Notes under the pieces: generated by a model | Databases searched by the model: none | What the model saw: the letters and a program-made list of their open reading frames with translations, nothing else | Told to the model about the DNA's origin: nothing | Position numbers and translations under genes: made by a program | Part shown: positions 5,599 to 62,730 of the stretch, piece by piece | Numbering within the stretch: the first letter of the stretch is position 1 | Layout: each line of letters starts with the position of its first letter | Source of the DNA: a virus | Direction: 5' to 3' (one strand) | DNA length: 64,000 bases | Virus record (IMG/VR): IMGVR_UViG_3300021079_000001 | Location: 32,001-96,000 of that record

Positions 5599-5606
5599 TA
5601 CCTTTG
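5599..5606 (+). promoter_or_regulatory. Bacteroidota-type -7 promoter element (TACCTTTG)
   Basis: Matches TAnnTTTG in the intergenic gap about 30 nt upstream of the ATG at 5639. Confidence 0.55.
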
Positions 5607-20400: not shown

Positions 20401-23400
20401 AAAAAGGATTGCCACGAATGTTCAAGTTTATTGATTATGATATTGCAGGTGATCATGATAAAGAACTTACAGCAATATGGGAACAGAAAAAACAGCTGTT
20501 GCCTGATAATATAGAAGATGCTGATGACTTATTTGAACAAGTATCAGAAGGTGTATCCGGTAAGACTATCCGTGAGTTATCAAGAATGGAAAAAGAGTTA
20601 GCTAAAAAGATAAAAGCTCTTGACCAATCATTAGAAGATTTCTTAAAGGAAAATAGAGGTAAATCTCCATATGATGTTAATAGCAAAGAAGCTATAGAAA
20701 ACAAGTTACAAATGGATATGGATGGTGTTCTTAGGCATCCTGATAACTTTGATCAGCTGGTGCATGTGAACAGTGCAGAACAAATGAAGAAGGCTACTAA
20801 AGATATCCAGAAGCTGAAAGAGAGTCAATTGCCTGATGACAAAAAGACACAATCCAGGGATAAGGATGATATCAATTATTCTGAAGTACTAGATCCTGTA
20901 TATGTATCACAACAACGTCAGGATATGTTGGATAGTAAGTATAGGATAGGTATAGGTGCACAGAATAATACTGGTCACTCTTTAGCTCAAAGTGCCAAGT
21001 ATCCTATAGTAGTAAGAGGTACTAAGTTAACAGAAAAAGATGCCGAATTAATACCAGTAGGTGCAGATGGTAAATTAGACTGGCAAATACATCTTCCCCA
21101 TAATGATGCTACTAAATTATGGTATGATAGAAACAGTAATACATGGAAAGATGCTGTAGCTACCTTATCTGGTAATAAAGTTAACAATCAATATATAGCA
21201 GAGTTACTTGCACAGTATATAGATGGTGCTGTTGATGGTCCTAAAGATCCATGGTTAATGAAAGTCTTCCCTTCACAAGATGCATTATCTACAGCAGTAT
21301 TTCTTACTCGTACAGGTGTACCTATTAATGATGTAGTATTGCTGATACACCAACCTGCAGTTCTTAAACTAATAGAAGAGCGTAATAAATACCAGACTCG
21401 TAGAAACCTTGATCCTAATGCCAGAGTACCTAGAAAAGAGGTAGTGAATAATGTAAGGAGTTTATATCCAGGTAATTGGATGCCTGTATCTGGTAACTTA
21501 GATAGGAATATCATGAAAGAGCAAGTGGCTCTGAGTGGTGCTAATAAAAAAGTTGATAATGCTTTCCAACAACAAGTGTTGACAGAATACTTAAAGTATG
21601 AGATGTATGCCAACCATGCTTTTAGAACACAAATAGGAACACCATATGATCTTATAAGTTCTCCAGATGCAGCTACTATGTATGCACAAAATAGAGCGTA
21701 TGAAAACTCTTTACAAAACAATGTAATATCCTCACCTATTAATATAGTAGAAGATAGTTTTCTAGCTGCTAGAAAGAAAAGTCTTAATGAAGCAGTAAAA
21801 ATGATAGGTGCTGTTATGGAAAGTTCTTCAGAAGCATTTATAAAACAAATTGAACCAATATGGAAAGCTCTTACTCATCCTGATGTAATAATGAAAAATG
21901 ATGACAGGATTGCATCTATGAATAAAGCCATTGTAAAATTCGTAGATTTTTTATCAAGTAGGTACCACATGCCTACAGGTATACCGATTGCTGATGGTAT
22001 AAAACAACTCATGATGAGTAATGCTATACCCAAGTTATTGAAAGAGGCACAGCTAAAACATCCTGATAATAAAGCTATACAAGCACTTAGTGTAGATATA
22101 CCTATATTCTCCAGGGACATGAAGAATGTGGTTATGTTCAAAAAACCAAAAGGTGCTGATGCTGATATGCTTACACAATACTTCAGAGAGTTTAGAGATT
22201 TTGGTCCTGAAGAGAAAAAGTTGTACGATAACCTTGTAATACTGGATAGACTACAATATGGTGCTACTGATAGGTTGAAAGCGTATGGCAAGTTCATACC
22301 TGCTGAAGATGCAGTTATTGCTCCTAAAGCTGGAATGAAAATGCTCAATGACATACCTTCAGCTGTACAGACATTTATAGAGACTAACCAATTCTATAAG
22401 AACGGTTGGAATGATGAAGAACTTGTACCATCTGTTAAGAAGTTTAATAGAAGTAAGAATATAGAAGGGTTAAAAAACAGAGTAGTTACACTAAAGAAAG
22501 GGAGTTGGGGTTCTACATCAGCGGCAGTTAAGATATGGGAATATATCAATCCGGATACAGGTAGGAAATACACAGATAGAGAAGTTGAAGAACTAGCACT
22601 AAAAGGGTTTAAACCTAAAACTGTACCTGAATTATACCGTAGAATAGAAAATAGTGAAGGAGAGCCTGTGATAATTAAAGATGCTAAAGGTGTAGAGTAC
22701 TACTCCTATAAACAGATTAATGCACTAGGAGATGGGCCTAACTTACAGGAATATTATGAAGATAATAGACCATCTGTACGTGATATGCATTTTAAAATAG
22801 AAGAAGAGGATAATAATAAAGTAAGATCAGCATTAGAAAAAGATGGATGGCAGATGGAAGAACCTGTAAAGAAAGAAGTGTTAGATGCTATGAAATCTCA
22901 ACAACCTGTAGTACCTTCACAGCGTATAACTAGTAGTAGAGTGAAACCTAACGAAAAGGGTGAGTATAATATATATGCAGGTACTGGAGAGAATGTAACA
23001 CTCTCTAATATGACTAATAGACCATTCACTATAGGAGGGTCTGAGTACAAGTCGGTTGAACAGTACTTCCAACTACAAAAGTATCAGATAGCTGGAGTAA
23101 TAGAACCTATAAGTGAGCAATACTCAGCACAAGTATACAAGAAGATAGGAGAGATGGCAGATGCTATAGATAAACCGAATATATCAGGATATGAAGCTAA
23201 GAAGCTAGGAGGCATTAGAATACCCAACAGTAAGTTCGATGAAGTATTCTGGGATAAGGAGGGTAAACAAGCTATGAAGACAGCTATGAAAGAGTCATTC
23301 AAGCAGAATCCAGAGTCACTCAGAGATCTACTGGCTACCGGGGATGCTAAGTTGACTCATACACAGGATAAAGGGAAATGGGGTGCTGAATTCCCTAGAC

Positions 23401-25185: not shown

Positions 25186-25552
25186 TACTACAGTCAATGC
25201 GCAGATGTTCCAGAAACAACCTAAGAAGGAGGTTATGGGTCTACGTCAACTCTCCAGGGAATTGATGATGAGTGAGTATACTGTAGCTGAATATCCCGGG
25301 TTAGTGCTAAAGTTCCTACATGGAGGTATACTACAGGTAAAAGGAAAAGAAAGTACCCCACGTATATACCGGTATACCCTAGCCCATACTGAAGGGGTAT
25401 ACAGGATGACTACAGCCCCTCATCTGCTCAATGAACCCTGTACTATGGACATGAAGATAATGAAGAACCACATGACCCTCAGTAACACAGATGGTACAGA
25501 AATAATACATCTTAACAAAATTAAAATATGTGCATACGATAACTCAAAATAG
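25172..25552 (+). CDS. Hypothetical protein (host gene of the downstream homing endonuclease insertion)
   Basis: Overlaps the ATP-grasp stop; its C-terminus AYDNSK is repeated at the end of the next gene. Confidence 0.6.
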   Translation: MALNSTTVNAQMFQKQPKKEVMGLRQLSRELMMSEYTVAEYPGLVLKFLHGGILQVKGKESTPRIYRYTLAHTEGVYRMTTAPHLLNEPCTMDMKIMKNHMTLSNTDGTEIIHLNKIKICAYDNSK

Positions 25553-26525
25553 TTCTATAAGAAAGTTATCAGGAATATATAAGATAACCAATTCTATAAC
25601 TTTAGATTCTTACATAGGAAGTAGTACTACAATAGGTATTAGATGGGCTACTCATATACGAGAGGTAAAGTCTAATACACATGATAATGCCCATCTGCAA
25701 CGAGCAGTTAATAAATATGGAGTACAGAATTTTAAATTCGAAATACTTGCTACATGCCCCAATGAGTATCTATTCAGCCTAGAACAGTGGTTCATAGATA
25801 ACTTAAATCCGAGCTATAATATTGAACGTAATGTAAAGAAGTATATTACATGGAGTAAAACAGATGTACAAAAGAAAAATAGCACAACTATTGTACCGGA
25901 TCAAATAAATAAAGTTAGATATCTAGCAAAATCAGGAAGCAGTATTAGGGAAATAAGTAAGAATGTAAACATTAGTACAAGAAGTGTGTGTGATATTATA
26001 AATGCAAAAGGCAGATTCAAAGATTATACCCCTATTATAACAGGAAAGCTAAATAAAAAACTAAGTACTGCAGATAAAGAAAGTATAATAAAACTCTATA
26101 TAAATGAGGCTCATTCATACCAATCTATTGCTGACCTATATAAAGTCTCTAAGGCTACTATATTTTATATACTAAAGGATATAGACATTACTATTAAAAT
26201 GCAAGATCATGTATCTACATTAAATACTGCTATAGATGCAGTAAGAAAACAGGAAGTTGTTAAATTACTAAAAGGAGGAAAAGGCAATCATAAAAGTAGT
26301 AGAAGAAAAAAAGTATACCTCTATTATATTAATTCATATGATTTACTTGCTACCTTTGAATCTCAAGTAGAAGCTAGTAAAGTATTAGGTATTTCATCTT
26401 CTGGTATATCGCACAATATAAAAGGGTTAACTAAATTTATGACGTTATCAGGTAAAAGTATTATACAAGGTAAGGTCCAATTCACTGATAAGATACGAGT
26501 TAAAGCATACGATAATAGCAAGTAA
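25530..26525 (+). mobile_element. Free-standing GIY-YIG homing endonuclease with HTH/NUMOD1-type DNA-binding modules
   Basis: SGIYKITN...YIGSS...RWATH...FEIL...EQWFID...YN; C-terminal FESQVEASKVLGI; A-rich composition. Confidence 0.88.
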
Positions 26526-36706: not shown

Positions 36707-36800
36707 ATGACTAGTGGAGGAATATATACAATAACTAATACTATAAATGGTAAAATGTATGTAGGATACACTACTAATTACAAGATTACAAAACAAATTA
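36707..36800 (+). pseudogene. Remnant of a GIY-YIG endonuclease
   Basis: ATG at 36707 reads MTSGGIYTITNTINGKMYVGYTTN, after which the domain is lost. Confidence 0.75.
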
Positions 36801-36813
36801 AAATCTATGCAAA

Positions 36814-37326
36814 ATGGCTAATCAGAATTATAACAAACTTGTGGCGTGGATGAAGTTCACAGGAGAAGGCTTTATGATAGGCGGTACCAACACATGGAGG
36901 CCGATTGGCGTTATACCTAGAGACGGATACTGGAGACAGATACCAGGAGATCTTAGCTCATTATGCTGCGGTGTAGGTAGTAGTTTGCTTATAGTGCAGA
37001 ACAATAGCACTAACAGTAATAATCCAGGAGCTACTGTAACATCATTAACTACTGCAGATGGTGCTATACAGTGGACCGGTACTATAGCTCAATCTGGTGG
37101 TATGCATGTATTTGTCATTCCTAATGGATATGATGAGACTTTTACACTTACCATAGGTATGGTAGGTACTCATGATGGTGTGGATATTGCAACATCTACT
37201 ATAGTAGGTTCCGGTACAATATCAGCAGCTACTCCTAGCTTCCTTAACAGTGGTACAGTATCTGCAGTATTTAATACCAGTGCTACACCAGCATCACAAT
37301 ATCTTGTAGTATTATCAGACGACTAA
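36814..37326 (+). CDS. Putative structural protein, S/T-rich
   Basis: N-terminal W/R-rich module ending LCCG, then an S/T/G-rich beta domain. Confidence 0.55.
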   Translation: MANQNYNKLVAWMKFTGEGFMIGGTNTWRPIGVIPRDGYWRQIPGDLSSLCCGVGSSLLIVQNNSTNSNNPGATVTSLTTADGAIQWTGTIAQSGGMHVFVIPNGYDETFTLTIGMVGTHDGVDIATSTIVGSGTISAATPSFLNSGTVSAVFNTSATPASQYLVVLSDD

Positions 37327-51705: not shown

Positions 51706-52023
51706 CTACTGTTTACCTGTGATCAATTTGATTGCCTGTACTACTATTGGATGTAACTTCTCTATATCACATGTCAGCAGTGTATTTTCTAGTTTGTCTC
51801 TGGTGCGTCTCAGTTCTTTTTTCCTCTCATCATCCCCTCCCAATATTGCTAGTGGGTCTTCTGATATCTCCATACGTATCTCGAACATTGCTCTTTTCAC
51901 TATGGGTATCAGCCACGTCCAGTCACTATCATATTCCATATCTGACAGTTGTTTGGGGCCATCTCGTAGTTCCATTTCCTCATATTTTTCATAGTACATC
52001 CAGTATCCATCTGGCTTCTTCAC
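51706..52023 (-). CDS. Hypothetical protein (Y.SDW.WL.P.V type); start uncertain
   Basis: MEYDSDWTWLIPIVK motif. Confidence 0.5.
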   Translation of the reverse strand: MKKPDGYWMYYEKYEEMELRDGPKQLSDMEYDSDWTWLIPIVKRAMFEIRMEISEDPLAILGGDDERKKELRRTRDKLENTLLTCDIEKLHPIVVQAIKLITGKQ

Positions 52024-52349
52024 ATTCTTCTCTGAACTCTGCTATCAGGTTGCTATCACCTTCTAGTACCTCTAACTCATATACAGTAATATATCCCATA
52101 ATTTGTTTGTTTGTATTGTTTTTCTATCTGCAGCATATAGCAGATATATCCAGTATACCACAGCAGCTAGTAATTTCCTCCAGTATACCATATAGCCTAT
52201 CCCATCATCAGCAATTTGATTGTCAACCTCCTACAGAATCTAACCAGTATTATCTGCTGATATGTATAGTTGTCTACTCATGTACCTGGATAATTCATTG
52301 TGTCTGCTTGTGTCTGCTTGTATCTGGATATATCTGTATATGAACTTGT

Positions 52350-53036
52350 CTAGTTCTTGCTGATTGTTGGTTTATATTTCCAGGTATACCCACCTGTACT
52401 TTTTATCTTTCCTTTACATGCATTACTTACTCCACTTCTATGCAATTTTAATTCACTACATGCGATAGCAGCACTTTCCCATTCTTTTATCTTTATACCG
52501 CCTATAGTCATCTGTATAACAGGTCGTATTAACCCTCGTTCTTGTTTTGTTCGATAACTCTTTTGATATTCTTCTTTAGTTCTTTTATAACCTTTTAAAC
52601 CTTGGGATATTCTATCTTTATGTTCTTGGGTTATAACTTGTAATTTTCTAGCTGCTCTTATTTTCTCTTTACTTTCTTTGGAATGTTCAGACACCCCATA
52701 TTCTCCGGTCCCTCTTAAATTGTACCCTATTTTATTATTATGAGTATTAAGTAACTTACACCAGTAATTTTCTCTAGCTTTTAATTCGCTTTTTGAACAG
52801 AGTTCTATTCTTTCAAACTTAAACATCTGTTCACCGTACAAATCCCATGCAGATTGTAGATGAGGGTTTCTATGATAACCATATCTCAACTTCTTCTTAT
52901 GGCTATCCCATCTTTTATTAAAGTGATTTGCATAACCTATATACACTTTATTATTCACTTTACAGGTTATACTATAGATACCGGTCTTATCAACATTCTT
53001 ACTAAAGAACTTTTCCTGTATATATACTTCTCTCAT
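52350..53036 (-). mobile_element. GIY-YIG homing endonuclease with NUMOD3/NUMOD1-type modules
   Basis: TGIYSITC...VYIGYA...RWDSH...ARENYW...GYN; HSKESKEKI; WESAAIAC...GGYTWKY. Likely start is ATG 53036, after the structured leader. Confidence 0.88.
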
Positions 53037-53039
53037 AAC

Positions 53040-53145
53040 AAAAATTTGGCCTGTAGAACTTTCACTGCGGTAACAGATCCAGCTCAACAGGCCATGAATT
53101 TCTTTGTATAGTTGTTACCGCAACTTATCTATACAAAGGTACTAA
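53040..53145 (-). ncRNA. Structured 5' leader (kissing-loop/pseudoknot) with TACCTTTG promoter
   Basis: Complementary pairs 53047-53060/53081-53094, 53066-53074/53114-53122 and 53102-53111/53129-53138. Confidence 0.6.
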
Positions 53146-53152
53146 CTTTTCC

Positions 53153-54286
53153 TTAGTTTTTACTAATTATCTTATCGAAACTTTTCATTTTCGGGAGAAT
53201 TTCAAATGCATCTGATTCTATCTCGAATTGCATATCAGGACTCATTTTCTGACTTTCACGGGTAATTGCATTATATACACCAAACGCACTATTATCCCCA
53301 TCTTTCAGAAAATAACGAAGTATATTCTGTCGATATTGCTCTGGTATATTTATTGCATTTGACACATTCTCGATAATAGCTACCTCATTTTCAATCAATA
53401 TATCTTTTGCCCTCTGTAGTTTTGTAGTAAGTTGCCCCAAATATTCTTTGCTCAGATAAAGTTTTACACTATCATGGATTTGTGACATTATTAATTCATA
53501 ATTCTTATTGATAGTATTACCAGACCATTCTACTATACCGTCATTCATTACTCCACCTAGATGGACTTTACGGAATCTAGCCATTCTATCGTGCATTCCA
53601 TTCTTACATTTCAGTATTTGAGCACGAGCTGATATTTCAAAACCTGAAAGACCCACCTCACTATTACTGATTACCAGTCCTGATATGATACCATTACCAG
53701 TAACTGCATTTGCTCTATCTGCCAGATATCCATCCAATAACTCCGTTGCTTCTATATGTATCTGTGGTGCCACTACGTGGAGATACATTCTCTTATCTGT
53801 AACTTCTGCTTTCACTATTTCCACGTCTATACCTGCATTCCTGATTGCTTCCAGTGCTGCTATCAGTACATCATAGTTGTCCAGTATATTGTATTTGTTA
53901 CTCAACATTGCTCTACATATGTTCTCTGTTCCCTCTTCTCCATAGTTGAATGTCCGTAACAAGTACTTGGTCTGTTCCTTCTTGCTCAACCACATATTGA
54001 TATTACTGGCCAGTAGTTCTGGGTATGTAGTTCTCAACTTTCTATAGTACGCTGCTGGTATTTCTAACTTCTGTCCTATCTGGTCATGTGCCAGGTCTGA
54101 TATACTATATTCACTATCCAATACATGTAGCAGACCACTAACTGCATCATATCGTATATGTCCAGATGGTACTACTAGATCTTGTTTCACTTTCTTTTGT
54201 TTCTCCAATACTTCTACCAGACCCTGCAATGGAGACCTGTCTTGTCTATCCAGTATTTCCTGTGCTCGTTCTATTGCTGTATTCAT
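53153..54286 (-). CDS. DUF932-like phage/plasmid protein
   Basis: AH.QI...L.IP..YY, RAMLSNKY..LDN, G..ISNSEVG......CKNG. Likely start is ATG 54286 after an A/C-rich leader. Confidence 0.75.
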   Translation of the reverse strand: MNTAIERAQEILDRQDRSPLQGLVEVLEKQKKVKQDLVVPSGHIRYDAVSGLLHVLDSEYSISDLAHDQIGQKLEIPAAYYRKLRTTYPELLASNINMWLSKKEQTKYLLRTFNYGEEGTENICRAMLSNKYNILDNYDVLIAALEAIRNAGIDVEIVKAEVTDKRMYLHVVAPQIHIEATELLDGYLADRANAVTGNGIISGLVISNSEVGLSGFEISARAQILKCKNGMHDRMARFRKVHLGGVMNDGIVEWSGNTINKNYELIMSQIHDSVKLYLSKEYLGQLTTKLQRAKDILIENEVAIIENVSNAINIPEQYRQNILRYFLKDGDNSAFGVYNAITRESQKMSPDMQFEIESDAFEILPKMKSFDKIISKN

Positions 54287-54311
54287 TGTTGTTCGCTTTG
54301 AGTATTGTGAC

Positions 54312-54434
54312 CTATTCTTGTTCATGGTGATTCTCTCTATATTGTTCTATAAACTCTTCCTTTGCTTGTTTCAGGCCATCTGCTATAACTTCTCTATACC
54401 AGGTACCTGATTTCTCTGCATGTTCTTGTGTCAT
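54312..54434 (-). pseudogene. Displaced 3' half of the 55200-55385 gene (40-aa ORF)
   Basis: MTQEHAEKSGTWYREVIADGLKQAKEEFIEQYRENHHEQE aligns with SEEQAKDSGGYWRVIEADDYKSAKDKFIEIYHENHIESE. Confidence 0.7.
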
Positions 54435-55057
54435 ATTTCATTGTCTTTTATGTGTTTCCAAGTTCTGTTATATAGTATACAATCCAATGTAGGTTTCTTT
54501 ATATTGTATACTTTCATTATTTCCATTCTATTTTTTCCTTCTTTGTGCATTTTTCTCATTCCTATTACATCACGATCTGTCCATATAGATGTAGCTGACT
54601 TTTCTCCTCTGGGTCTATTGCTATAGTTTCGAAATGGAAATGTCCTACAGGCATGCTGCATATTTTCAGAATGTGTACACCACTCCAGATTCTCTACACG
54701 ATTATTGTCTCTTACCTTATCTATGTGATTGATTTCTGGTTTGTTCTCCGGATTCGGTATAAATGCTATAGCAACAAGTCTATGTACTCTATAATTTGAC
54801 TGCTTATCGTTTTTCGTTAGTGGTAGATACTTATATCCATCTGCATCTATAAGACGTAATAATCTACCTTCTCTTATATGTATGAGAGGCTTGTCAGGAT
54901 TCCATCTATTTCGTCTTGTTACAGTTCTGGTTAGTGACCTAACTCTACCTTGATTGGATACTTCATAGAATTTCTCATATCCAGTTACCGGTTTCCATAT
55001 TTCAACAGCATCGGAGACTGTATTCATCTCTCCGTTTTCTATTCTGCAATTTTCCAT
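54431..55057 (-). mobile_element. NUMOD4-HNH homing endonuclease
   Basis: EIWKPVTGYEKFYEVSNQGRVRS; VHRLVAIAFIPN...INHIDKVRDNNRVENLEWCTHSENMQHA. Confidence 0.92.
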
Positions 55058-55059
55058 AA

Positions 55060-55195
55060 CGTAACATGCACTACATACACAGAAGGCTCATCACCGATAC
55101 CATAGAGGTATGATGCATCTGTGCTGTAGTGCGTATTGTTGAATGGTTATTGACTATGTACATGGTATTCGGTAATGAGCAGTACGAAGGTACGA
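55060..55195 (-). ncRNA. Structured 5' leader (pseudoknot) with TACCTTCG promoter
   Basis: Complementary pairs 55068-55083/55118-55132 and 55086-55103/55162-55180, interleaved. Confidence 0.6.
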
Positions 55196-55199
55196 AATT

Positions 55200-55385
55200 C
55201 TATTCAGATTCTATATGATTTTCATGGTAGATTTCTATGAATTTATCCTTTGCAGATTTGTAATCATCGGCTTCTATTACTCTCCAATATCCCCCAGAAT
55301 CTTTTGCTTGCTCTTCTGAATTGTAGGTCACAACTTTCCCCTGATATCTGTTGTAGCCTAATATGTAGTTCTTTGTTTCTTTCAT
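55200..55385 (-). CDS. Small hypothetical protein (homing endonuclease target gene)
   Basis: Follows the primase; its 3' half is duplicated at 54312-54434. Confidence 0.6.
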   Translation of the reverse strand: MKETKNYILGYNRYQGKVVTYNSEEQAKDSGGYWRVIEADDYKSAKDKFIEIYHENHIESE

Positions 55386-55392
55386 TGTGTAT

Positions 55393-56406
55393 CTATATTA
55401 TCTGTTTGTTCTTGAAGTGCTCTACGATCTGTTCCTTCATACCAGCTGCATACATCTCTGCCCAGTCCTTGTAGGGGCTGTAGTTGTCTGGTACATTCAC
55501 ATGTCTCATCCATGGGTGTTTCTCATTGACTCTTCTGGATGCCTGTTTCCCCGGACTATCACTATCATATGATATCCACACCTGTCTACCCTGTAGTATC
55601 TGTAGTAGATCATCTGTCCATGCACTAATGGATTCATTCTGCACTGATATGAGCCCTATAGTATCTGGTAGTATCTGCTCGAGAGTACATCTATCCTTGC
55701 GGCTTTTGCATACAACTACCTTCTCATGACCATTCAATCTGTCTAGCCCTTCTACAACTCGTGTACTGATATTACTTGCTGGCCATTTTTCTCCCTTTCC
55801 TCTCATTGGATAGTACAGCTTGAACTTATCCTCATCTGGTGTACTACCTGGATATCTATAGCAATAGCACAACTCTCCATCATATATAGGTTGCCGTACT
55901 CTATTCAGGTACCATTCTCGAACTGGATATATCTGTTCTCTATCCAGTTGCTCTCTATTGATACCAAACTGCTGCCAGTATCCGAGTGTTCTATCAGACC
56001 ACCTGACAGCAGTAACTTGTATCAGTGCAGCCTTTTTAACAGTGGGAACCCTATCAGAATTGCCTGGAATTACCCTTTTACCCATATCCTGTCCAGATAC
56101 ATCTATCAGGCCCATGTCAGTGGCTATACGAGTGAGAGTCTTGTCATAACTATCCCCATACATCTTCATCACCAGATGGAACACATTACCTCTCTCTTCT
56201 GTTGCAAAATCCTTCCACAATATTGTTCCATCTGATTCGAATATACTCCAACTACCTTCATGTTTATCTGTGCGAATAGGACTTTTCATTTTCCCATGTA
56301 GCACTATATCTGATACGTATTGGGTGTATATCTGCATGACCGATAATCTATCTAGTAACCACTCTGCTGTGATATTCACAACTTCTTTGCGTTTCACCAG
56401 ATTCAT
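55393..56406 (-). CDS. DNA primase (Toprim, crAss-like)
   Basis: SPIRTD...WKDFAT..RGN.F; KLYYP; CKSRKD; QNES; YDSDSPG; KDWAE. Confidence 0.85.
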   Translation of the reverse strand: MNLVKRKEVVNITAEWLLDRLSVMQIYTQYVSDIVLHGKMKSPIRTDKHEGSWSIFESDGTILWKDFATEERGNVFHLVMKMYGDSYDKTLTRIATDMGLIDVSGQDMGKRVIPGNSDRVPTVKKAALIQVTAVRWSDRTLGYWQQFGINREQLDREQIYPVREWYLNRVRQPIYDGELCYCYRYPGSTPDEDKFKLYYPMRGKGEKWPASNISTRVVEGLDRLNGHEKVVVCKSRKDRCTLEQILPDTIGLISVQNESISAWTDDLLQILQGRQVWISYDSDSPGKQASRRVNEKHPWMRHVNVPDNYSPYKDWAEMYAAGMKEQIVEHFKNKQII

Positions 56407-56429
56407 ATCATCAGTTTGTAACTTGTTAC

Positions 56430-56684
56430 CTATTCTTTTCTGCGAAATTCATCTATCAGTATCATATATGAGCTATACAGGTTGAACATCAGTGTACTCC
56501 ATCTGTCTCTGATCTCTTTCACTATTGTTCTCTCACCTGTTATTGGGTCTACTGCCCATCCAATCTGATATAGATCTTGCTCTGGTATTCCATTTGTTTC
56601 TTTCTTCCAATCCTCAGTAGCCAAACACTTCGCTAGTCCTTCACAATCAATTTCACTATATTCTACCTGTTGTCCGTTCTCCAT
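56430..56684 (-). CDS. Hypothetical protein
   Basis: ORF with A/C-rich leader. Confidence 0.5.
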   Translation of the reverse strand: MENGQQVEYSEIDCEGLAKCLATEDWKKETNGIPEQDLYQIGWAVDPITGERTIVKEIRDRWSTLMFNLYSSYMILIDEFRRKE

Positions 56685-56707
56685 TCTGTTGTATTTGTTG
56701 TTATCTA

Positions 56708-57394
56708 TTATAGTGCCTGTATTGACTGTATTGCTTCACCCTTGGCCGTATCTATAGCTTTCTGCATCTGGATCAGTATTTCCCTAGCACTCTTGCTAAG
56801 AGCCTCTGGTAGCTCTATATCTGCTATTGCATTATCTACATACTCTATCAGTGTTATTTTCTCTTTCATAGCTGCAACTAGATCCTTTGTATCTACCTTA
56901 CCTGTACTTCTCACTGTAGTAGTACGAGGTGTCCTGGATTTCTTTCCATCTGCTGATAGGGATAATGGTTTTGTTACCGAGTCTATCAGTTGTTGCCTTT
57001 CTGCTATCTGTGTTGTATCTTCTATCATATCTGTTTGTTTGTTGGTTATCTGTTCTGCTATGGTAGTGAGTGTATTAGCTACTTCATTCGGTGTCATTGT
57101 ATCCACACCTATCTGGACATTTGCTGCTATCTGGTCACCTTCTACTGGCGGATTCAATTGTATCCAGTTCTCTATTTGTTCTACTACATAGTCACTTTCA
57201 TCTAGGGTAACTCGTGGATCTTTGTCCAGTGTTTTCTGTATTGTATTTACATCTGCTCCACTATTCCATAATTTCACTATATCTGCTACTACTTCCTTGT
57301 TCAGGTCATCTATATAGAATACTACACTATCATCGCTAATTAGTGATACTGCCTGGTCACCATTCTCGGAAATATACTGCCATTGTTTGTTCAT
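56708..57394 (-). CDS. Hypothetical protein (likely start ATG 57394)
   Basis: ATG preceded by acaaacaaacaaatagaatagat; helical C-terminus. Confidence 0.55.
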   Translation of the reverse strand: MNKQWQYISENGDQAVSLISDDSVVFYIDDLNKEVVADIVKLWNSGADVNTIQKTLDKDPRVTLDESDYVVEQIENWIQLNPPVEGDQIAANVQIGVDTMTPNEVANTLTTIAEQITNKQTDMIEDTTQIAERQQLIDSVTKPLSLSADGKKSRTPRTTTVRSTGKVDTKDLVAAMKEKITLIEYVDNAIADIELPEALSKSAREILIQMQKAIDTAKGEAIQSIQAL

Positions 57395-57515
57395 ATCTAT
57401 TCTATTTGTTTGTTTGTCAGAGTATATGAGAGTAGTACTGCTCACAGATTCACAATCTATAGATTACTGCCCTGGATCTTGCAATACTACATCTCTTCTA
57501 CTCCTTGGTTGTGAA

Positions 57516-58448
57516 CTAGTAATCTGTATCTGCTATTATATCTGTTGCTGGTATGAAGGTATTGTTAGTTGATTGCTGGAATGTGGCTGCATCAAACTCT
57601 GTCAGTAATCCCATTGTATAACTGCCTTTACAACCATGCTCTACATCTGTAATTTGCTTGTGCCATTTTTCTAGTCCACCTTTCCAATTACCTGTACTAA
57701 CAGCACTATTAACAACCTGCATAGTAGGTGAATAACGGCTACCATCTTTTACCTGCCGACCTAGTATTTCTGGCCAGAATTTCTGTTGGTGTACCAATTG
57801 ACCATCCTTTTCTTTTGTTTGTACATATGCCAGTATCACTATCTCACCTGTTAGAGAATCTTCCTTTGACAGTTTCAACAATGCACGATATTCATCTGTA
57901 ATATACTTATCTACATTGCGAAATAGTTTCTTAGAGTCAAATAGTATATTGGTAGCTGGATCAGAAAACTTCACATTGGATAACCAGGGTTTCAGGAATT
58001 TGTACCAGTCTGCCTCACCAGAGAGCCCTTGCCTAACTATTTTGTCTGCTGTATTCTCCTTGGATTTGAAATCCTGGAAATGTGTGAACCAATCCTGTAG
58101 GTTCTCTAGACTATCTGCACTACCGTTATCTCCAGTCTGAGATACGAACTGCAGTTTTTTCGATGTTGGCCATATCATCAGTTTGTCTGTGATATAGTAT
58201 GGTATACGGAATTTCTGACCAGTGAACTCACTACTAGTAATTTCTACCCATGGTACTATCTGTATCTGTTCATCACCATCTTTCGATTTTCCCTCATACT
58301 CCAATTCCTTCTTCTCTGGATCTACAGTACTATTGTACATTTCTGCAACTGCTGCCCTATCTGGATTAATAGCAATGACCTTTGCCGAGAATATGCCAGT
58401 GAATAATTTACCACCACTTCCTGTATTTGTTTGTTTCACTAATTCCAT
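57516..58448 (-). CDS. Putative single-stranded DNA-binding/annealing protein (crAss-like)
   Basis: KLFTG...KVIAINP N-terminus and acidic aromatic C-terminus (DTDY); lies between the Sak4-like ATPase and the primase. Confidence 0.55.
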   Translation of the reverse strand: MELVKQTNTGSGGKLFTGIFSAKVIAINPDRAAVAEMYNSTVDPEKKELEYEGKSKDGDEQIQIVPWVEITSSEFTGQKFRIPYYITDKLMIWPTSKKLQFVSQTGDNGSADSLENLQDWFTHFQDFKSKENTADKIVRQGLSGEADWYKFLKPWLSNVKFSDPATNILFDSKKLFRNVDKYITDEYRALLKLSKEDSLTGEIVILAYVQTKEKDGQLVHQQKFWPEILGRQVKDGSRYSPTMQVVNSAVSTGNWKGGLEKWHKQITDVEHGCKGSYTMGLLTEFDAATFQQSTNNTFIPATDIIADTDY

Positions 58449-58471
58449 GTGTCTATTTGTTTTGTTGTTTG

Positions 58472-58657
58472 TTATTTGTAAATTGACTTTTCTATGTGTT
58501 TATCGAATTCTTCTCTGCTAATTACTTTCACTTTGCTATGTTTACATAACCATACTATATATGAGAATACCTCGTCTGTACTGACAGTATCACTCTTTCC
58601 TTTCATTGTATCACGTATCATCTTACCTATATCTGTACGTATTAGTGATTGACTCAT
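58472..58657 (-). CDS. Hypothetical protein
   Basis: Coupled ORF. Confidence 0.45.
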   Translation of the reverse strand: MSQSLIRTDIGKMIRDTMKGKSDTVSTDEVFSYIVWLCKHSKVKVISREEFDKHIEKSIYK

Positions 58658-58896
58658 ATGGATTTCATTACTGTTATTATTGAATTTCTGTCTATTTCAT
58701 GTATTTTCACCGTTGCCATCATACTCACGTTGTCATCATATTCACATACTGCTTTACCTGCACATTCTATCACTATACTCTTCCCATATGTACGTAATAG
58801 TAGGGCCAGTGTTTTCGGTGATATTGCATACATATTATCACCTGTTTTGGGTTCTCCTAGCATTTCTTGTATATACTGTTCTGCTGTCTGTATCAT
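58654..58896 (-). CDS. Small hypothetical protein (YAxxVIDxC family)
   Basis: TAEQY...RTYGKSIVIECAGKA...IDRNSI. Confidence 0.55.
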   Translation of the reverse strand: MIQTAEQYIQEMLGEPKTGDNMYAISPKTLALLLRTYGKSIVIECAGKAVCEYDDNVSMMATVKIHEIDRNSIITVMKSI

Positions 58897-59114
58897 TGTA
58901 ATTCCTGTTTGAATTTCTCGAATGTATCATAACTATATTCAGCAGTACCATCTTCATCATCTACATATATCATATCTGGCCTAGAGAGTATATGGTCTAT
59001 AACCCCCTTGGCATATTCTCGCATAGCTGCATATACAATACTATCTGTCCATACACCATCTGATTGGTCATGTGCGTATAATAGTCCCATTGCTACTTCT
59101 TTTGCTGTTCTCAT
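58893..59114 (-). CDS. Small hypothetical protein (YAxxVIDxC family)
   Basis: MRTAKEV...AMREYAKGVIDH...FKQELQ. Confidence 0.55.
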   Translation of the reverse strand: MRTAKEVAMGLLYAHDQSDGVWTDSIVYAAMREYAKGVIDHILSRPDMIYVDDEDGTAEYSYDTFEKFKQELQ

Positions 59115-59118
59115 ATAT

Positions 59119-59958
59119 CTACTTCTTGTCAGGTGAGATGAAAATTTTGCCCCAGTTTAATGGCCCAGAAAATCCTGTCAAATGTGTAGCACGTACACCA
59201 CCTAATTGTTGGTCATTACCCTTAAATGAAATCATGAATGTACCATCTTCATTCCACACATTAGCAGTTCCGTCCACAAGTCGGGGAAGTATATCGCGCG
59301 TTTTTCCAACCAGGGCTAAATCCTTGATCATTACCTGTTCCTTGTTCTTCTCGGCTATCATCTTATCGGCCACATGGCACACGAATATAGTACATATCTT
59401 TCCCAGATTCTTCAATGCCTCAAATATGTCCAATATAGCAGTCCTACTGTACTGATAGCCAAAACCGTTCGGGAGAGATAATACACTCTGATAATTTGGA
59501 TCAGATGGTGGTAGCATAATTGATTTCTTTGTATTTGGATCTATAACTATCTGCCCTTGGTCATCTGTAACCCGATTGAAATTCTTACCAGCTACACTAT
59601 GCATATATGAAAATGTTCCTACAGCCTCAGCATCAATGTCTAACTGTGAAATAGTATCTATAATTACATAGTCATATGGATATCCTGCTTCTCTGATAGT
59701 CTTTGCTAGTTCTTTTAACCACTTGAATCGGGATACTGGCCCATATGCAGATGGTGGCAGCATTACATTCGCTGTAACAAACTCTGCCCCATCTTCTACA
59801 TCTATCAATAAATGGTTCGGTAATTGACTACATGCAGTTGTCTTACCCGATTTCTCTTTCCCATATATTAGTAGGTTTCTCGGATTCACTGCAGTTGCTT
59901 TTCTTGGTGCTGTAGGTAGAACGATACCTCCTTTCTTTTCTTCTTTGTTTGTTTCCAT
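59119..59958 (-). CDS. Sak4-like / AAA_24 P-loop ATPase
   Basis: LLIYGKEKSGKTT, LIDVEDG, VIIDTIS, IFVCHV; likely start ATG 59958. Confidence 0.85.
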   Translation of the reverse strand: METNKEEKKGGIVLPTAPRKATAVNPRNLLIYGKEKSGKTTACSQLPNHLLIDVEDGAEFVTANVMLPPSAYGPVSRFKWLKELAKTIREAGYPYDYVIIDTISQLDIDAEAVGTFSYMHSVAGKNFNRVTDDQGQIVIDPNTKKSIMLPPSDPNYQSVLSLPNGFGYQYSRTAILDIFEALKNLGKICTIFVCHVADKMIAEKNKEQVMIKDLALVGKTRDILPRLVDGTANVWNEDGTFMISFKGNDQQLGGVRATHLTGFSGPLNWGKIFISPDKK

Positions 59959-59969
59959 ATGTTGTTTGT

Positions 59970-60176
59970 TTACTTGTTCTTCTTGTCTGTAATGGCTATG
60001 AATGTTTTCCATCGTTCTGCATCTAGCTCATACTCTTCCTGTGCAGCTTTGTATCCGGCTTTCCATGCTCTATATACCTCATTCTCGTTGTACCCATCAG
60101 AGAGTTCGGGAGTCATCCAGTTCTCTGCTTGCTGTATATGAGCCCAACAGGCTGCTTCTATTTCTTGTTCTGTCAT
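59970..60176 (-). CDS. Hypothetical protein
   Basis: AWKAGYKAA motif typical of small phage ORFs. Confidence 0.5.
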   Translation of the reverse strand: MTEQEIEAACWAHIQQAENWMTPELSDGYNENEVYRAWKAGYKAAQEEYELDAERWKTFIAITDKKNK

Positions 60177-60178
60177 GG

Positions 60179-60397
60179 TTATTGTAATTCATTTTTCAGT
60201 GTTTCTACTATTTCATCCATATCACTATAGTCCCTATCTGATACTACACTAATAGTTAACCTATCCCGTAGTTCGTCTATAGCTTCTCTGGCATACCGGT
60301 GACATATTTCTGACATCTCAGCATTTCCTATATCTTCCGAATATTTCACATGCATTTCTTTGAACACTTCCTGTGTAATTTCTATCACTGATCTCAT
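60179..60397 (-). CDS. Small hypothetical protein (YAxxVIDxC family)
   Basis: CHRYAREAIDEL...LKNELQ. Confidence 0.55.
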   Translation of the reverse strand: MRSVIEITQEVFKEMHVKYSEDIGNAEMSEICHRYAREAIDELRDRLTISVVSDRDYSDMDEIVETLKNELQ

Positions 60398-60618
60398 ATC
60401 TGCTCTGTTTTACTGTCTATGTACTGCTGATACAGTTGCTCCCGAGTGTTAGTTTCTTGTTCGAATGTAGAGCATTTTGTAGTTACCCATTCCAGTACTG
60501 CTATACACTCTTGCCTGGAGTACTTTTCCATATATATTTCAATACTTTCTGTCATTCCATGCTTCTCGGAGATATTCCATAATAGCTTATCCTCTCTTAT
60601 TATCTGTTCTGCTGTCAT
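60394..60618 (-). CDS. Small hypothetical protein (likely start MTAEQ)
   Basis: ATG overlapping the HNH stop; MEKYSRQECI. Confidence 0.5.
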   Translation of the reverse strand: MTAEQIIREDKLLWNISEKHGMTESIEIYMEKYSRQECIAVLEWVTTKCSTFEQETNTREQLYQQYIDSKTEQI

Positions 60619-61379
60619 TCTGTTACTGCTTTTACCTCGTTCATAATACGTTGTCTGGCATTTCTTTTCTTTCTGTAATTGTTTGCACATAATCTACAAT
60701 ATGAGTAGAGACCATCTCCTTTTCTATTTTTTCGACTATGTTTATTGAATTGATCATACAATTTATTTTCACTACACATTCTACATTTTTTGTAGCCTTC
60801 TTTTGGTAAACTGCTTATATAATCTTCATACTCTTTCAACTTTTCAGAGGTCAATACATTCAATCTTGCAAATTCCCCATGGTATTTCAATGCCATTTCA
60901 TTGTATACTACAGCAGCTTCTACTTCTAATTTGCAATTCTTTCTATATGTTACATTATTACAATCTAACTCAGCTACCCAATAACTATATTTTTCACGAT
61001 TCTTTTGTAATGATACACCTTTGTATATGGAAGTAACTTTATCGCTGATTTTTCTTTCACTATTAGCTATATTTTGCCCATTAGTAGCTACTCTCAGATT
61101 ACTTCTCTGATTGTTCAGTGTATTTCTGTCTATATGATCTCCGAATAATTTGGAATCAGTTATAGACAGTATCATTCTATGCATTCGAATAGTTGTATAT
61201 TTTTGTTTACCTTCAAGGTACTCTTTACAGCCACGTCTAGTAACATATATAGCCTCTGTATGATGGTGCTTATAACCACTCCAATTATACTGATTCAACC
61301 ATTCGTAGTCTTCATCATCTACCATTGCATAATTCTCAATAACTGAACCATGTTTTCCACCTAACCATATTTCTTTCAT
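60615..61379 (-). mobile_element. HNH-AP2 homing endonuclease with C-terminal Zn ribbon
   Basis: AMVDDEDY, RMHRMIL...DHIDRNTLNNQRSNLR; S.YKGVS...EAAVVYNEMALKYHGEFARLN; CRMC...CRLC. Confidence 0.92.
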
Positions 61380-61490
61380 TCCTATAGACTATTATGGCCT
61401 ACCAGAACTAACTGTATGGTACACAGCTTTGTCCTAATAGGCCAATATCTTGATAACGGGTACCATCCGTTTTGTCTATACAAATGTCGT
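61380..61490 (-). ncRNA. Structured 5' leader (kissing loops) with GACATTTG promoter-like element
   Basis: Pairs 61395-61407/61432-61444, loop-loop 61416-61422/61460-61466, 61455-61459/61467-61471 and 61383-61389/61474-61480. Confidence 0.6.
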
Positions 61491-61521
61491 ACATTTCACT
61501 GGGATTTCCAACTATTTGGTT

Positions 61522-62730
61522 CTACTTTTCTTGTATTATCCTATCTCTATTTGAAGGAAATCCCTGGAAGGGTTTGCTCATTATCTGTTTCTCTTCCCGT
61601 TCTATCTCTGTAGGTAGGAAGTAGCGACCAGTGGTTATCTCCCCATATATAGCATTGTCTATAGGACTCTCTACTGTGATACGGGGCATAGTCTTCAATA
61701 TTCCATATGTTGGGTGCATAGCTATTGGCCATTGTATATTCTCACCATCGAAGTTGTTCTTCAGCATATGTAGTGACCGGTAATAGGTACGTAACTTCTT
61801 GTCTCGTAACTTCTGTAGATCATATCCATTGTGGTCTGCCCTTTCCCCTGCAGGTATATGTGGATATGGGTTGAACATTGCTAATACTATATCTGCTGAT
61901 TTCTGAGTCTGTGAGCTATCTGCGAAGTCACTGAGTTTCGGTACCAGATCCCCTACCAACTTCCGTCTACTGGTATCTGATATAGCCCTGTTCAAGTGCT
62001 GTACTATGATTGGAGAGAATCCGTATATATCTCTAGCTTCATACATAGTTCTATTGAACTTGTCTACTAGTCCTTTTTCTTTCAGGTCCTTCTCCTGATC
62101 CAGTACACTTGCATTGTCCCCTACTATCAGTACTATATGGTTGGGGTGATGTGGTTTGTACTCCCTCTTTGCCAGTATATTGTCCATACTGGTATCTGAC
62201 CTATCCTTGTCTATTATAGTACCGTGTTTCCTGGCGAATGCTTCTATATACTTGCTGATACCTGTAGGGTTGTGACTTCCTTGGAATGCTATCAGTAGAT
62301 CATCCTTCTCCCACTCATCTAGTATTTCACTGTACTTTTCCAACAGAGCATATTCCTCATCAGATAGCTGTTCATTCACCTTTCTACCCAGTATCCGTTT
62401 CGGATGTATCTCTCTACCTGTTTCTTCATATATCTTTCTGGAGATCCAGCGGCTACTGTATGCCGTCATACGCCTTTCCATCAGGAACGATATCACAGAT
62501 AACTTCATCCCTACCGGTTTGTGTTTCAGGTACCATTCTATAGGATCTATGATGAATGTAGTCTGTGCGAGAGTTGTCTTACCTGCAGTAGGCTCTCCAC
62601 CTATCAACACCATAGTACTCTTGCCTATCTCCATATAGTCACATACCCTATCTAGATTTATCGGTATAGTGCCTCCACCTGGTGCTCTACCAGCTTTGAT
62701 CTCTTCTAATAGGTCCTGTCTGAGGCTCAT
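61522..62730 (-). CDS. Replicative SF4 (DnaB-like) helicase
   Basis: GGEPTAGKTT, FLMER, IVGDN, IIVQHLNR, P.LSDFADS...ADIVLAMF, LKN. Confidence 0.85.
   Translation of the reverse strand: MSLRQDLLEEIKAGRAPGGGTIPINLDRVCDYMEIGKSTMVLIGGEPTAGKTTLAQTTFIIDPIEWYLKHKPVGMKLSVISFLMERRMTAYSSRWISRKIYEETGREIHPKRILGRKVNEQLSDEEYALLEKYSEILDEWEKDDLLIAFQGSHNPTGISKYIEAFARKHGTIIDKDRSDTSMDNILAKREYKPHHPNHIVLIVGDNASVLDQEKDLKEKGLVDKFNRTMYEARDIYGFSPIIVQHLNRAISDTSRRKLVGDLVPKLSDFADSSQTQKSADIVLAMFNPYPHIPAGERADHNGYDLQKLRDKKLRTYYRSLHMLKNNFDGENIQWPIAMHPTYGILKTMPRITVESPIDNAIYGEITTGRYFLPTEIEREEKQIMSKPFQGFPSNRDRIIQEK

What the first reader, a model, noticed from the sequence alone, without database searches (positions are those of the whole stretch)
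53040..61490. Three unrelated homing endonucleases share one promoter plus pseudoknot/kissing-loop leader architecture
Seen: upstream of the GIY-YIG (53040-53145), NUMOD4-HNH (55060-55195) and HNH-AP2 (61380-61490) genes, the sense strand reads -7 promoter-like element, segment A, stem arm B, A' (complement of A, inside the B hairpin), B', then ATG within about 10-15 nt. GIY-YIG: A=TGCGGTAAC, A'=GTTACCGCA, B=TGGCCTGTTGAGCT, B'=AGTTCTACAGGCCA. HNH-AP2: A=ATGGTAC in hairpin AACGG/CCGTT, A'=GTACCAT, B=TGGCCTATTAGGA, B'=TTCTGGTAGGCCA. NUMOD4-HNH: A=GCTCATTACCGAATACCAT, A'=ATGGTATCGGTGATGAGC, B=GCACTACAGCACAGA, B'=TCTGTGTATGTAGTGC. The sequences differ but the topology is conserved, and two share TGGCCT/AGGCCA. 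Known: T4-type endonuclease genes use simple RBS-sequestering hairpins. Inference: this is a portable cis-regulatory RNA switch (or RNA cofactor) that travels with mobile nucleases of different families, possibly timing toxic nuclease expression.
Basis: partly seen in the sequence, partly recalled or inferred. Interest (0 to 1): 0.85.

Follow-up and report, generated by a model that had tools for sequence, protein, structure and literature searches.

The report
Folded leader RNA of homing-endonuclease cassettes
Three selfish DNA-cutting-enzyme genes of this uncultured lake phage each carry their own promoter and a folded RNA leader of about 110 bases whose start pairs with the tip of a long hairpin; relatives keep this pairing through matched mutations, it matches no catalogued RNA family, and it probably doses how much nuclease is made.

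Summary

- **Architecture.** Two leaders (GIY, AP2) are homologous two-hairpin leaders whose apical loops are complementary (kissing). The third (NUMOD4) is a variant in which the first transcribed bases pair inside the long hairpin.
- **Conservation.** A leader in a related phage is about 84% identical in DNA while its nuclease is 39% identical in protein, with 4 double compensatory changes, one of them in the kissing helix. The NUMOD4-type leader recurs in front of an HNH-AP2-type gene in another contig.
- **Enrichment.** Across 189 loci of nuclease homologues, strong interleaved stems occur upstream in 12, against 19 of 4426 control windows (p = 1e-9).
- **Relatives.** Most end the long hairpin in a U-run, like a terminator.
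- **Databases.** There is no Rfam match and I found no paper describing it.
- **Function.** This is inferred, not shown: a portable expression-limiting leader. No RNA data were available.

Notes of this scan report the same module in at least nine other genomes.

The parts
53134..53141 (-). GIY leader: promoter-like box of Bacteroidota -7 type (TAnnTTTG)
   Evidence: This box type is depleted in the window (27 found against 59 expected).
53102..53138 (-). GIY leader: first hairpin. The outer stem is 53129-53138 with 53102-53111. Its loop carries the kissing segment 53114-53122.
53047..53094 (-). GIY leader: long hairpin P2. The arms are 53081-53094 and 53047-53060. The tip carries 53066-53074, complementary to 53114-53122. 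It is followed by AAA and then five T, 10 nt before the ATG.
   Evidence: Kissing duplex -16.0 kcal/mol.
52350..53036 (-). GIY-YIG homing endonuclease gene (228 aa)
   Evidence: Pfam GIY-YIG 3.6e-12 and a NUMOD-like domain; PHROG 314.
55185..55192 (-). NUMOD4 leader: promoter-like box with one mismatch to TAnnTTTG
   Evidence: The homologous box in L144 is a perfect match.
55162..55180 (-). NUMOD4 leader: 5' arm A, pairing with A' at 55086-55103
   Evidence: -27.5 kcal/mol. The pairing is kept with a different sequence in L144 (-21.0).
55068..55132 (-). NUMOD4 leader: long hairpin with arms B 55118-55132 and B' 55068-55083. A' (55086-55103) lies inside its loop, 2 nt from B'.
54431..55057 (-). 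NUMOD4-HNH homing endonuclease gene (208 aa)
   Evidence: Pfam NUMOD4 1.2e-13 and HNH_3 8.1e-12.
61474..61488 (-). AP2 leader: variant promoter-like box (61481-61488) overlapping the 5' arm of the outer helix P0 (61474-61484)
61455..61471 (-). AP2 leader: small hairpin P1 with the 7-nt loop 61460-61466
   Evidence: 2 compensatory pairs against L137.
61395..61444 (-). AP2 leader: long hairpin P2. It has a 14-bp lower stem, a 4-bp upper stem, and the 7-nt loop 61416-61422 complementary to the P1 loop.
61379..61389 (-). AP2 leader: 3' arm of the outer helix P0, reaching the first base of the start codon
60615..61379 (-). HNH (AP2-like) homing endonuclease gene (254 aa)
   Evidence: HNH_3 9.4e-5, below the Pfam cut-off; PHROG 99 1.4e-22. 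It is homologous over residues 17-176 to proteins that carry Pfam AP2 plus HNH_3.

Best explanation
Each of the three genes is a self-contained mobile cassette of promoter, structured 5' leader of about 105-125 nt, and nuclease ORF.

In the leader RNA, a 5'-proximal element pairs with the top of a long hairpin that ends 10-15 nt before the start codon. In GIY and AP2 that element is the loop of a small hairpin. In NUMOD4 it is the first transcribed bases.

I infer that this compact fold keeps nuclease output low and independent of the insertion context, through two routes:
- In most relatives the long hairpin is followed by a U-run, so it would act as an intrinsic terminator inside the leader (attenuation), with the 5' contact tuning it.
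- In the window's AP2 leader and its closest homologue, an outer helix instead covers the start codon (translational occlusion).

Shown: the structure, its conservation by compensatory change, its link to nuclease genes, and its movement with them.

Inferred: transcription from the box, and the direction and mechanism of control.
For: 1. Homologue L137 has 84% identical leader columns against 39% protein identity.
   - 41 pairs are 98.8% paired, against 30-45% when the partners are slid.
   - There are 4 double compensatory changes, one of them in the kissing helix.
2. Twelve kissing leaders carry twelve different loop pairs (the AP2 and L137 loops differ at a single compensatory pair), and all are perfectly complementary.
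3. Loop-loop complementarity of 7 or more upstream of HNH-AP2 homologues: 4/79 against 3/3692 controls, p = 6e-6.
4. Interleaved stems of score 24 or more: 12/189 against 19/4426 (p = 1e-9), and against 2/562 upstream of other ORFs in the same loci (p = 3e-6).
5. In those relatives, a canonical -35/-10 or TAnnTTTG box sits 5-8 nt before arm A, and A' abuts B'.
   - In the 12 kissing leaders, a U-run follows the hairpin at once in 8, and after 2-3 A in 2 more.
   - A U-run followed by an SD and the ATG is also seen in most of the interleaved-stem leaders.
6. The sense strand folds better than the antisense strand in 12 of 14 leaders, by 5.2 kcal/mol on average.
7. The leader moves with the nuclease.
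   - The L137 phage is a relative (PolA 69% identical).
   - It carries leader plus HEG at another place.
   - Its helicase gene is followed by the next gene after 13 nt.
8. The box-to-ATG distance is 112 nt in 5 of 8 leaders.
9. A model built from AP2 and L137 finds the GIY leader full-length as the next best hit in 381 kb (21.6 bits, E = 0.07).
10. HEG expression is known to be limited by hairpins and terminators in T4 (PMC2988022).
Against: - There are no expression data: no RNA run holds the region, and no start site or 3' end is mapped.
- The window's own three leaders lack a canonical U-run. GIY has five T after AAA; AP2 and NUMOD4 have none. Attenuation is therefore extrapolated from relatives.
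- In GIY nothing visibly covers the start codon.
- The role of the 5' contact could be to strengthen, weaken or merely organise the hairpin.
- Only about 10-15% of HNH-AP2 homologue loci show the module.
- There is no enrichment of kissing leaders in the 80 loci from cellular genomes (1/78).
- The NUMOD4 leader folds better on the antisense strand in a nested-only prediction.
Confidence: 0.6

Rival explanations
1. The leader raises or secures expression rather than limiting it. A base-paired 5' end and a compact fold would protect the mRNA from 5'-end-dependent decay. They would also insulate the A/U-rich ribosome landing site from whatever sequence the cassette lands next to.
For: - Arm A or hairpin P1 begins a few bases after the promoter box, so the 5' end would be paired.
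- The 10-18 nt between the long hairpin and the ATG are A/U-rich and left unpaired in most members.
- The cassette occurs in different contexts.
Against: - The U-run right after a GC-rich stem in most relatives is what a terminator looks like, not an insulator.
- In AP2 and L137 the outer helix covers the start codon.
- Homing nucleases are generally kept at low levels (PMC2988022).
Confidence: 0.15
2. The promoter-to-U-run unit is a small RNA gene in its own right, about 90-100 nt with both ends paired. It would act in trans or bind the nuclease as inhibitor or cofactor, and the nuclease would be made only by read-through. This resembles type III toxin-antitoxin loci.
For: - Many relatives have a promoter, a pseudoknotted RNA, a terminator-like hairpin with a U-run, and only then an SD and the ATG.
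- In the AP2/L137 pair the leader DNA is more conserved than the protein.
Against: - The same leader type serves unrelated nuclease folds (GIY-YIG and HNH), which argues against a protein-specific partner.
- No orphan copies were found in the phage's own genome or in five member contigs.
- The spacing to the ATG is tight and constant.
- The window's AP2 and NUMOD4 leaders have no terminator.
- There are no tandem repeats as in ToxI, judged by reading the sequence.
Confidence: 0.15
3. The repeats act in DNA: operator half-sites for autorepression, or a cruciform or recombination site of the cassette.
For: - The complementary segments are inverted repeats that flank or overlap promoter-like sequence.
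- I-TevI represses its own promoter (PMC2988022).
- In L218 a second -10-like box lies between the two hairpins.
Against: - 49 of 423 predicted pairs are G-U, which would be A-C mismatches on the other strand.
- The sense strand folds better in 12 of 14 leaders.
- The complementary segments sit precisely in hairpin loops whose stems covary themselves.
- The loop sequences differ in every member.
Confidence: 0.06
4. Chance complementarity in A/T-rich intergenic DNA.
For: By a crude ungapped measure the AP2 pairing (7 bp) and the NUMOD4 stems are not outliers in the genome.
Against: Compensatory changes in homologues and 15- to 65-fold enrichment upstream of nuclease genes.
Confidence: 0.02

Closest known systems
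Regulatory RNA structures of T-even phage homing endonuclease genes (I-TevI/II/III, segB, Aeh1 mobE hairpins; terminators in T4 mobE and segF; hairpin before seg43(25)); review PMC2988022
   Same: - RNA structure just upstream of a free-standing nuclease gene limits its expression.
- A promoter lies in or next to the 5' arm.
- The AP2 leader's outer helix covers the start codon, as those hairpins cover the RBS.
   Different: - The T4 elements are single hairpins or simple terminators without a conserved tertiary pairing.
- They are not known as a portable module shared between nuclease families and phyla.
- Here, a 5' element pairs with the hairpin top, and that pairing covaries.
Guanidine-IV (mepA) riboswitch: kissing loop between a first hairpin and the terminator loop (PMC11611296 and papers cited there)
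   Same: Two hairpins in a leader. The loop of the first pairs with the loop of a terminator hairpin, and this contact is proposed to set termination.
   Different: - There is no Rfam match.
- The loop sequences here differ in every member, so there is no conserved ligand pocket.
- The downstream genes are nucleases, not transporters.
- No ligand is implied.
Type III toxin-antitoxin loci (ToxIN type) and HEARO/omega RNA of IscB
   Same: The order is promoter, structured (pseudoknotted) RNA, then a nuclease ORF. In ToxIN a terminator lies between the RNA and the nuclease gene. This rests on my own knowledge.
   Different: - There are no tandem RNA repeats.
- The protein is a DNA homing nuclease with its own DNA-binding domain.
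- The same RNA type serves unrelated nucleases.
- No Rfam HEARO match was found.

Membership tests
T4-type RBS/AUG-sequestering hairpin with promoter inside | A stable helix covers the RBS or start codon | tested here: inconclusive
   Met in AP2 and L137: the outer helix reaches the ATG. Not met in GIY. In NUMOD4 the long hairpin ends 6-10 nt before the ATG.
T4-type RBS/AUG-sequestering hairpin with promoter inside | Transcripts from the gene's own promoter lack the 5' arm and are translatable | not testable with these tools
   The box overlaps the 5' arm of the outer helix in AP2 and L137, but no start site is mapped and no RNA run was found.
Intrinsic-terminator attenuator in a leader | GC-rich stem directly followed by a U-run, between promoter and start codon | tested here: inconclusive
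   In the window, GIY has five T after AAA, and AP2 and NUMOD4 have none; the scan tool flags none of them. Among the 12 kissing leaders (which include GIY and AP2), the run is immediate in 8 and offset by 2-3 A in 2. L218 is flagged by the tool. Most type-2 members also have it.
Kissing-loop / pseudoknot RNA | Interleaved complementary segments kept by compensatory change | tested here: met
   enrichment.
Any Rfam 15 family (incl. guanidine-IV, HEARO, hammerhead, group I intron, tRNA) | Covariance-model match | tested here: not met
   No hit at the gathering score in the window. No hit at E up to 5 in 52000-62000. No hit on the leaders of 20 member loci at E up to 1. ARAGORN finds no tRNA.
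Type III toxin-antitoxin RNA | Tandem repeats of the RNA unit upstream of the nuclease gene | not tested
   Each leader reads as a single unit. No tandem-repeat search was run.

The most novel reading that the evidence does not exclude
The leader is not only a cis control element. It would be a stable small RNA, with paired 5' end and terminator 3' end, that works with or against its nuclease: as an antitoxin-like inhibitor, as a cofactor, or through intermolecular loop-loop pairing between copies. It would then be a new RNA partner class for classical homing endonucleases.
Probability: 0.07. Interest if true: 0.9.

Novelty: new variant of a known kind. Interest (0 to 1): 0.66.

Why it matters
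How free-standing homing endonucleases keep their toxic activity in check outside T4 is largely unknown. A portable promoter-plus-leader module would have several consequences:
- It would be a general solution to that problem, if its tertiary pairing covaries and it is shared by unrelated nuclease families from Bacteroidota-type to sigma-70-type hosts.
- It would be a new RNA family for annotation.
- It would be a natural example of a context-independent expression-dosing part.
- It would give a marker for the boundaries of mobile nuclease cassettes in phage genomes.

Tried and rejected
- **tRNA remnant or mimic.** A pattern scan hit a phage tRNA-Asn whose acceptor and T-arm ends equal the ends of the AP2 long hairpin. 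My pattern forced 18 of those positions, ARAGORN and Rfam see no tRNA, and I judge it chance.
- **Hammerhead or other ribozyme, and group I intron.** No Rfam hit, and there is no three-stem core by reading.
- **Megablast and blastn against 50,697 phage records.** Neither the region nor the leaders match.
- **Exact-pattern scans of IMG/VR and JGI metagenomes for the shared hairpin ends.** Only L137 (the same contig as L138) is a true homologue.
- **RNA evidence.** No RNA holder is listed for the region, so no reads were laid.
- **MAFFT alignment of 8 leaders (A3).** It is structurally unusable.
- **Model R1, built from two sequences.** It finds only the GIY leader beyond its own inputs, so no family-wide covariation statistic was obtained.
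- **HEG-less allele.** Synteny next to the helicase homologue of the L137 phage is not conserved, so exact cassette ends could not be drawn.
- **NUMOD4-HNH and GIY-YIG homologue loci (L122-L131, L222-L254).** These gave no further leaders.
- **Extra leader copies.** A pattern search in five member contigs found none.
Full report
**What is there.** The window is bases 32001-96000 of a 111.4-kb viral record with direct terminal repeats. A lake-water metagenome run holds part of the stretch. Genes in 50-64 kb lie on the minus strand. Pfam and PHROG confirm three homing-endonuclease genes:
- GIY-YIG at 52350-53036.
- NUMOD4-HNH at 54431-55057.
- An HNH_3 protein at 60615-61379. It misses Pfam AP2 itself but is homologous over residues 17-176 to proteins that carry AP2 plus HNH_3.

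I refine the anatomy as follows.
- **GIY leader:** a promoter-like box is followed by a hairpin whose loop holds the segment 53114-53122. Then comes a long hairpin (arms 53081-53094 and 53047-53060) whose tip holds the exact complement, 53066-53074.
- **AP2 leader:** a 5-bp hairpin carries the 7-nt loop 61460-61466. A long hairpin follows, with a 14-bp lower stem, a 4-bp upper stem, and a 7-nt apical loop (61416-61422) that is the exact complement. An outer helix (61474-61484 with 61379-61389) closes everything and reaches the ATG.
- **NUMOD4 leader:** a linear 19-nt arm lies right after the box and pairs with 18 nt inside the loop of a 15-16-bp hairpin, 2 nt from its 3' arm. The duplexes are -27.5 and -23.3 kcal/mol.

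So GIY and AP2 are kissing-loop leaders, and NUMOD4 is a pseudoknot variant of the same plan.

**Is it more than chance?**
- MFE z-scores are -4.1, -2.3 and -6.4.
- An exact 7-nt loop match has p about 6e-5 at this composition.
- In the phage's own genome, MFE-defined loop pairs with 7 or more complementary bases occur in 3 of 6546 windows.
- Among 110 ORF upstream regions the GIY leader ranks first and NUMOD4 ties for fourth of 110 (score 20) for interleaved stems.
- A crude genome-wide scan shows that ungapped interleaved stems of moderate score are common. The case therefore rests on comparison with homologues.

**Homologues.**
- *L137.* An exact-pattern scan found L137 in IMG/VR.
  - Its leader has the same 112-nt length from box to ATG and is identical at 94 of 112 columns (84%). 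The nuclease behind it is only 39% identical in protein.
  - On my structure, 41 pairs are 98.8% paired, against 30-45% when the partners are slid. There are 4 double compensatory changes: 2 in the small hairpin, 1 in the upper stem, and 1 in the kissing helix.
- *Kissing leaders among HNH-AP2 homologues.* Searching with the nuclease family gave 80 IMG/VR loci and 80 loci from cellular genomes.
  - Twelve leaders (GIY, AP2, L137, L121, L155, L165, L169, L261, L209, L218, L187, L193) share the two-hairpin plan.
  - They carry twelve different loop pairs, and all are perfectly complementary. The AP2 and L137 pairs differ at a single compensatory base pair.
  - By an MFE-based test, 4 of 79 non-redundant upstream regions have 7 or more complementary loop bases, against 3 of 3692 control windows (p = 6e-6).
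- *NUMOD4-type leaders.*
  - The NUMOD4-type leader recurs in L144, in front of an HNH-AP2-type gene. The box and the hairpin arms are conserved, and the A:A' pair is rewritten but still complementary.
  - A further pair, L178 and L278, shows 2 double compensatory changes in A:A'.
- *Enrichment across all loci.* Over all 189 nuclease-homologue loci, interleaved stems of score 24 or more lie upstream of the nuclease gene in 12.
  - This compares with 19 of 4426 control windows (p = 1.1e-9) and 2 of 562 upstream regions of other ORFs in the same loci (p = 2.7e-6).
  - These members come from several phyla, and they show one plan:
    1. A canonical -35/-10 promoter, or TAnnTTTG in Bacteroidota.
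    2. Arm A, starting 5-8 nt later.
    3. Hairpin arm B, then the loop.
    4. A', abutting B'.
    5. In most members, a U-run, an SD and the ATG.

**RNA rather than DNA.**
- The sense strand folds better than the antisense strand in 12 of 14 leaders, by 5.2 kcal/mol on average.
- 49 of 423 predicted pairs are G-U.

**The leader belongs to the cassette.**
- The L137 phage is a relative of this one: its PolA is 69% identical to a gene just outside the window.
- Its leader plus nuclease lies upstream of PolA. In the window, they lie downstream of the helicase.
- In the L137 phage the helicase homologue is followed by the next gene after 13 nt.
- A model made from AP2 and L137 finds the GIY leader full-length as the next best hit in 381 kb. 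The two window leaders are therefore homologous, although their nucleases have unrelated folds.

**The promoter box.**
- TAnnTTTG is strongly depleted in the window, with 27 found against 59 expected.
- The extended form occurs before two late-region genes (5599 and 32368, +) and at the GIY leader. One-mismatch variants stand at the other two leaders.
- Transcription from these boxes is inferred; no RNA data were available.

**Mechanism.**
- The known precedent is T4, where nuclease genes are held down by RBS-sequestering hairpins with a promoter inside, and by terminators (PMC2988022).
- In most relatives here, the long hairpin plus U-run looks like a terminator placed between the promoter and the RBS. 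In AP2 and L137 the U-run is missing and an outer helix covers the ATG instead.
- I therefore read the module as an expression-limiting leader with either a transcriptional or a translational output.
- I read the 5' contact as the part that tunes or locks the hairpin. This is architecturally like the kissing loop of the guanidine-IV riboswitch (PMC11611296), but without a conserved ligand pocket.
- The sign of the effect is unknown.
- The window's own leaders have weak (GIY) or no terminator character.
- The rivals, scored separately, are an mRNA protector or insulator, a stand-alone small RNA, and a DNA operator.

**Novelty.**
- No Rfam 15 family matches the window at E up to 5, or 20 member loci at E up to 1.
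- Full-text searches found no description.
- A catalogue of phage structured-RNA candidates could not be checked, because its tables are not held.
- Notes of this scan report the same kind of leader in at least nine other genomes. I treat these as leads.
  - I tested their central claim here: the 5' end or first hairpin pairs with the tip of a terminator-like hairpin before nuclease genes. It holds.
  - One note says the module also precedes non-nuclease genes. In my loci the few non-nuclease hits look like chance, but my flanks were short.

**Limits.**
- No start sites, 3' ends or expression levels are known.
- The family-wide alignment was made by eye and by scripts, not by a structure-aware aligner.
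- Only 10-15% of homologue loci show the module.
- The fourth endonuclease gene of the window has none.

Noticed in passing
window 25530-26525 (+): A fourth homing endonuclease gene (GIY-YIG, 7.9e-9). Its GTG start lies at the end of the upstream reading frame, and it has no structured leader. The 345 nt before it are not significantly structured (z = -1.4). Other first-reader notes describe a duplicated C-terminal tail here.
   Followed up: partly
window 36716-36781 (+): A weak GIY-YIG match (E = 0.004) in a 61-aa open frame just before the ORF at 36814. It may be a nuclease remnant.
   Followed up: no
window, whole: TAnnTTTG is strongly avoided, with 27 found against 59 expected from shuffles. 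This fits a Bacteroidota-type host promoter signal under selection. Extended boxes stand at 5599 (+), 32368 (+) and 53141 (-).
   Followed up: partly
window 8421-23504 (+): A single ORF of 5027 aa. This would fit the giant virion proteins of crAss-like phages (my recollection). It was not analysed.
   Followed up: no
G000:C1:100755-100877 (-), outside the window: A 42-aa stretch 40% identical to the L137 nuclease (tblastn E = 5.5e-4). It may be a further AP2/HNH fragment.
   Followed up: no
L222, L224, L228, L231, L244 (upstream of the match): Homologues of the NUMOD4-HNH protein in other viral contigs are preceded by sequence that reads like a group I intron core. This was judged by eye, with no Rfam run on these loci. 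If correct, this nuclease family is intron-borne there and free-standing here.
   Followed up: no
L009 2439-2509 and L012 (minus strand): A phage tRNA-Asn(GTT). Its first 8 and last 15 bases equal the ends of the AP2 leader's long hairpin. I judge this a by-product of the search pattern.
   Followed up: partly
L218 1379-1407 (+): A second extended -10 promoter-like site lies in the linker between the two hairpins of that leader, with its -35 in the first loop. If it is used, some transcripts would lack the first hairpin.
   Followed up: no
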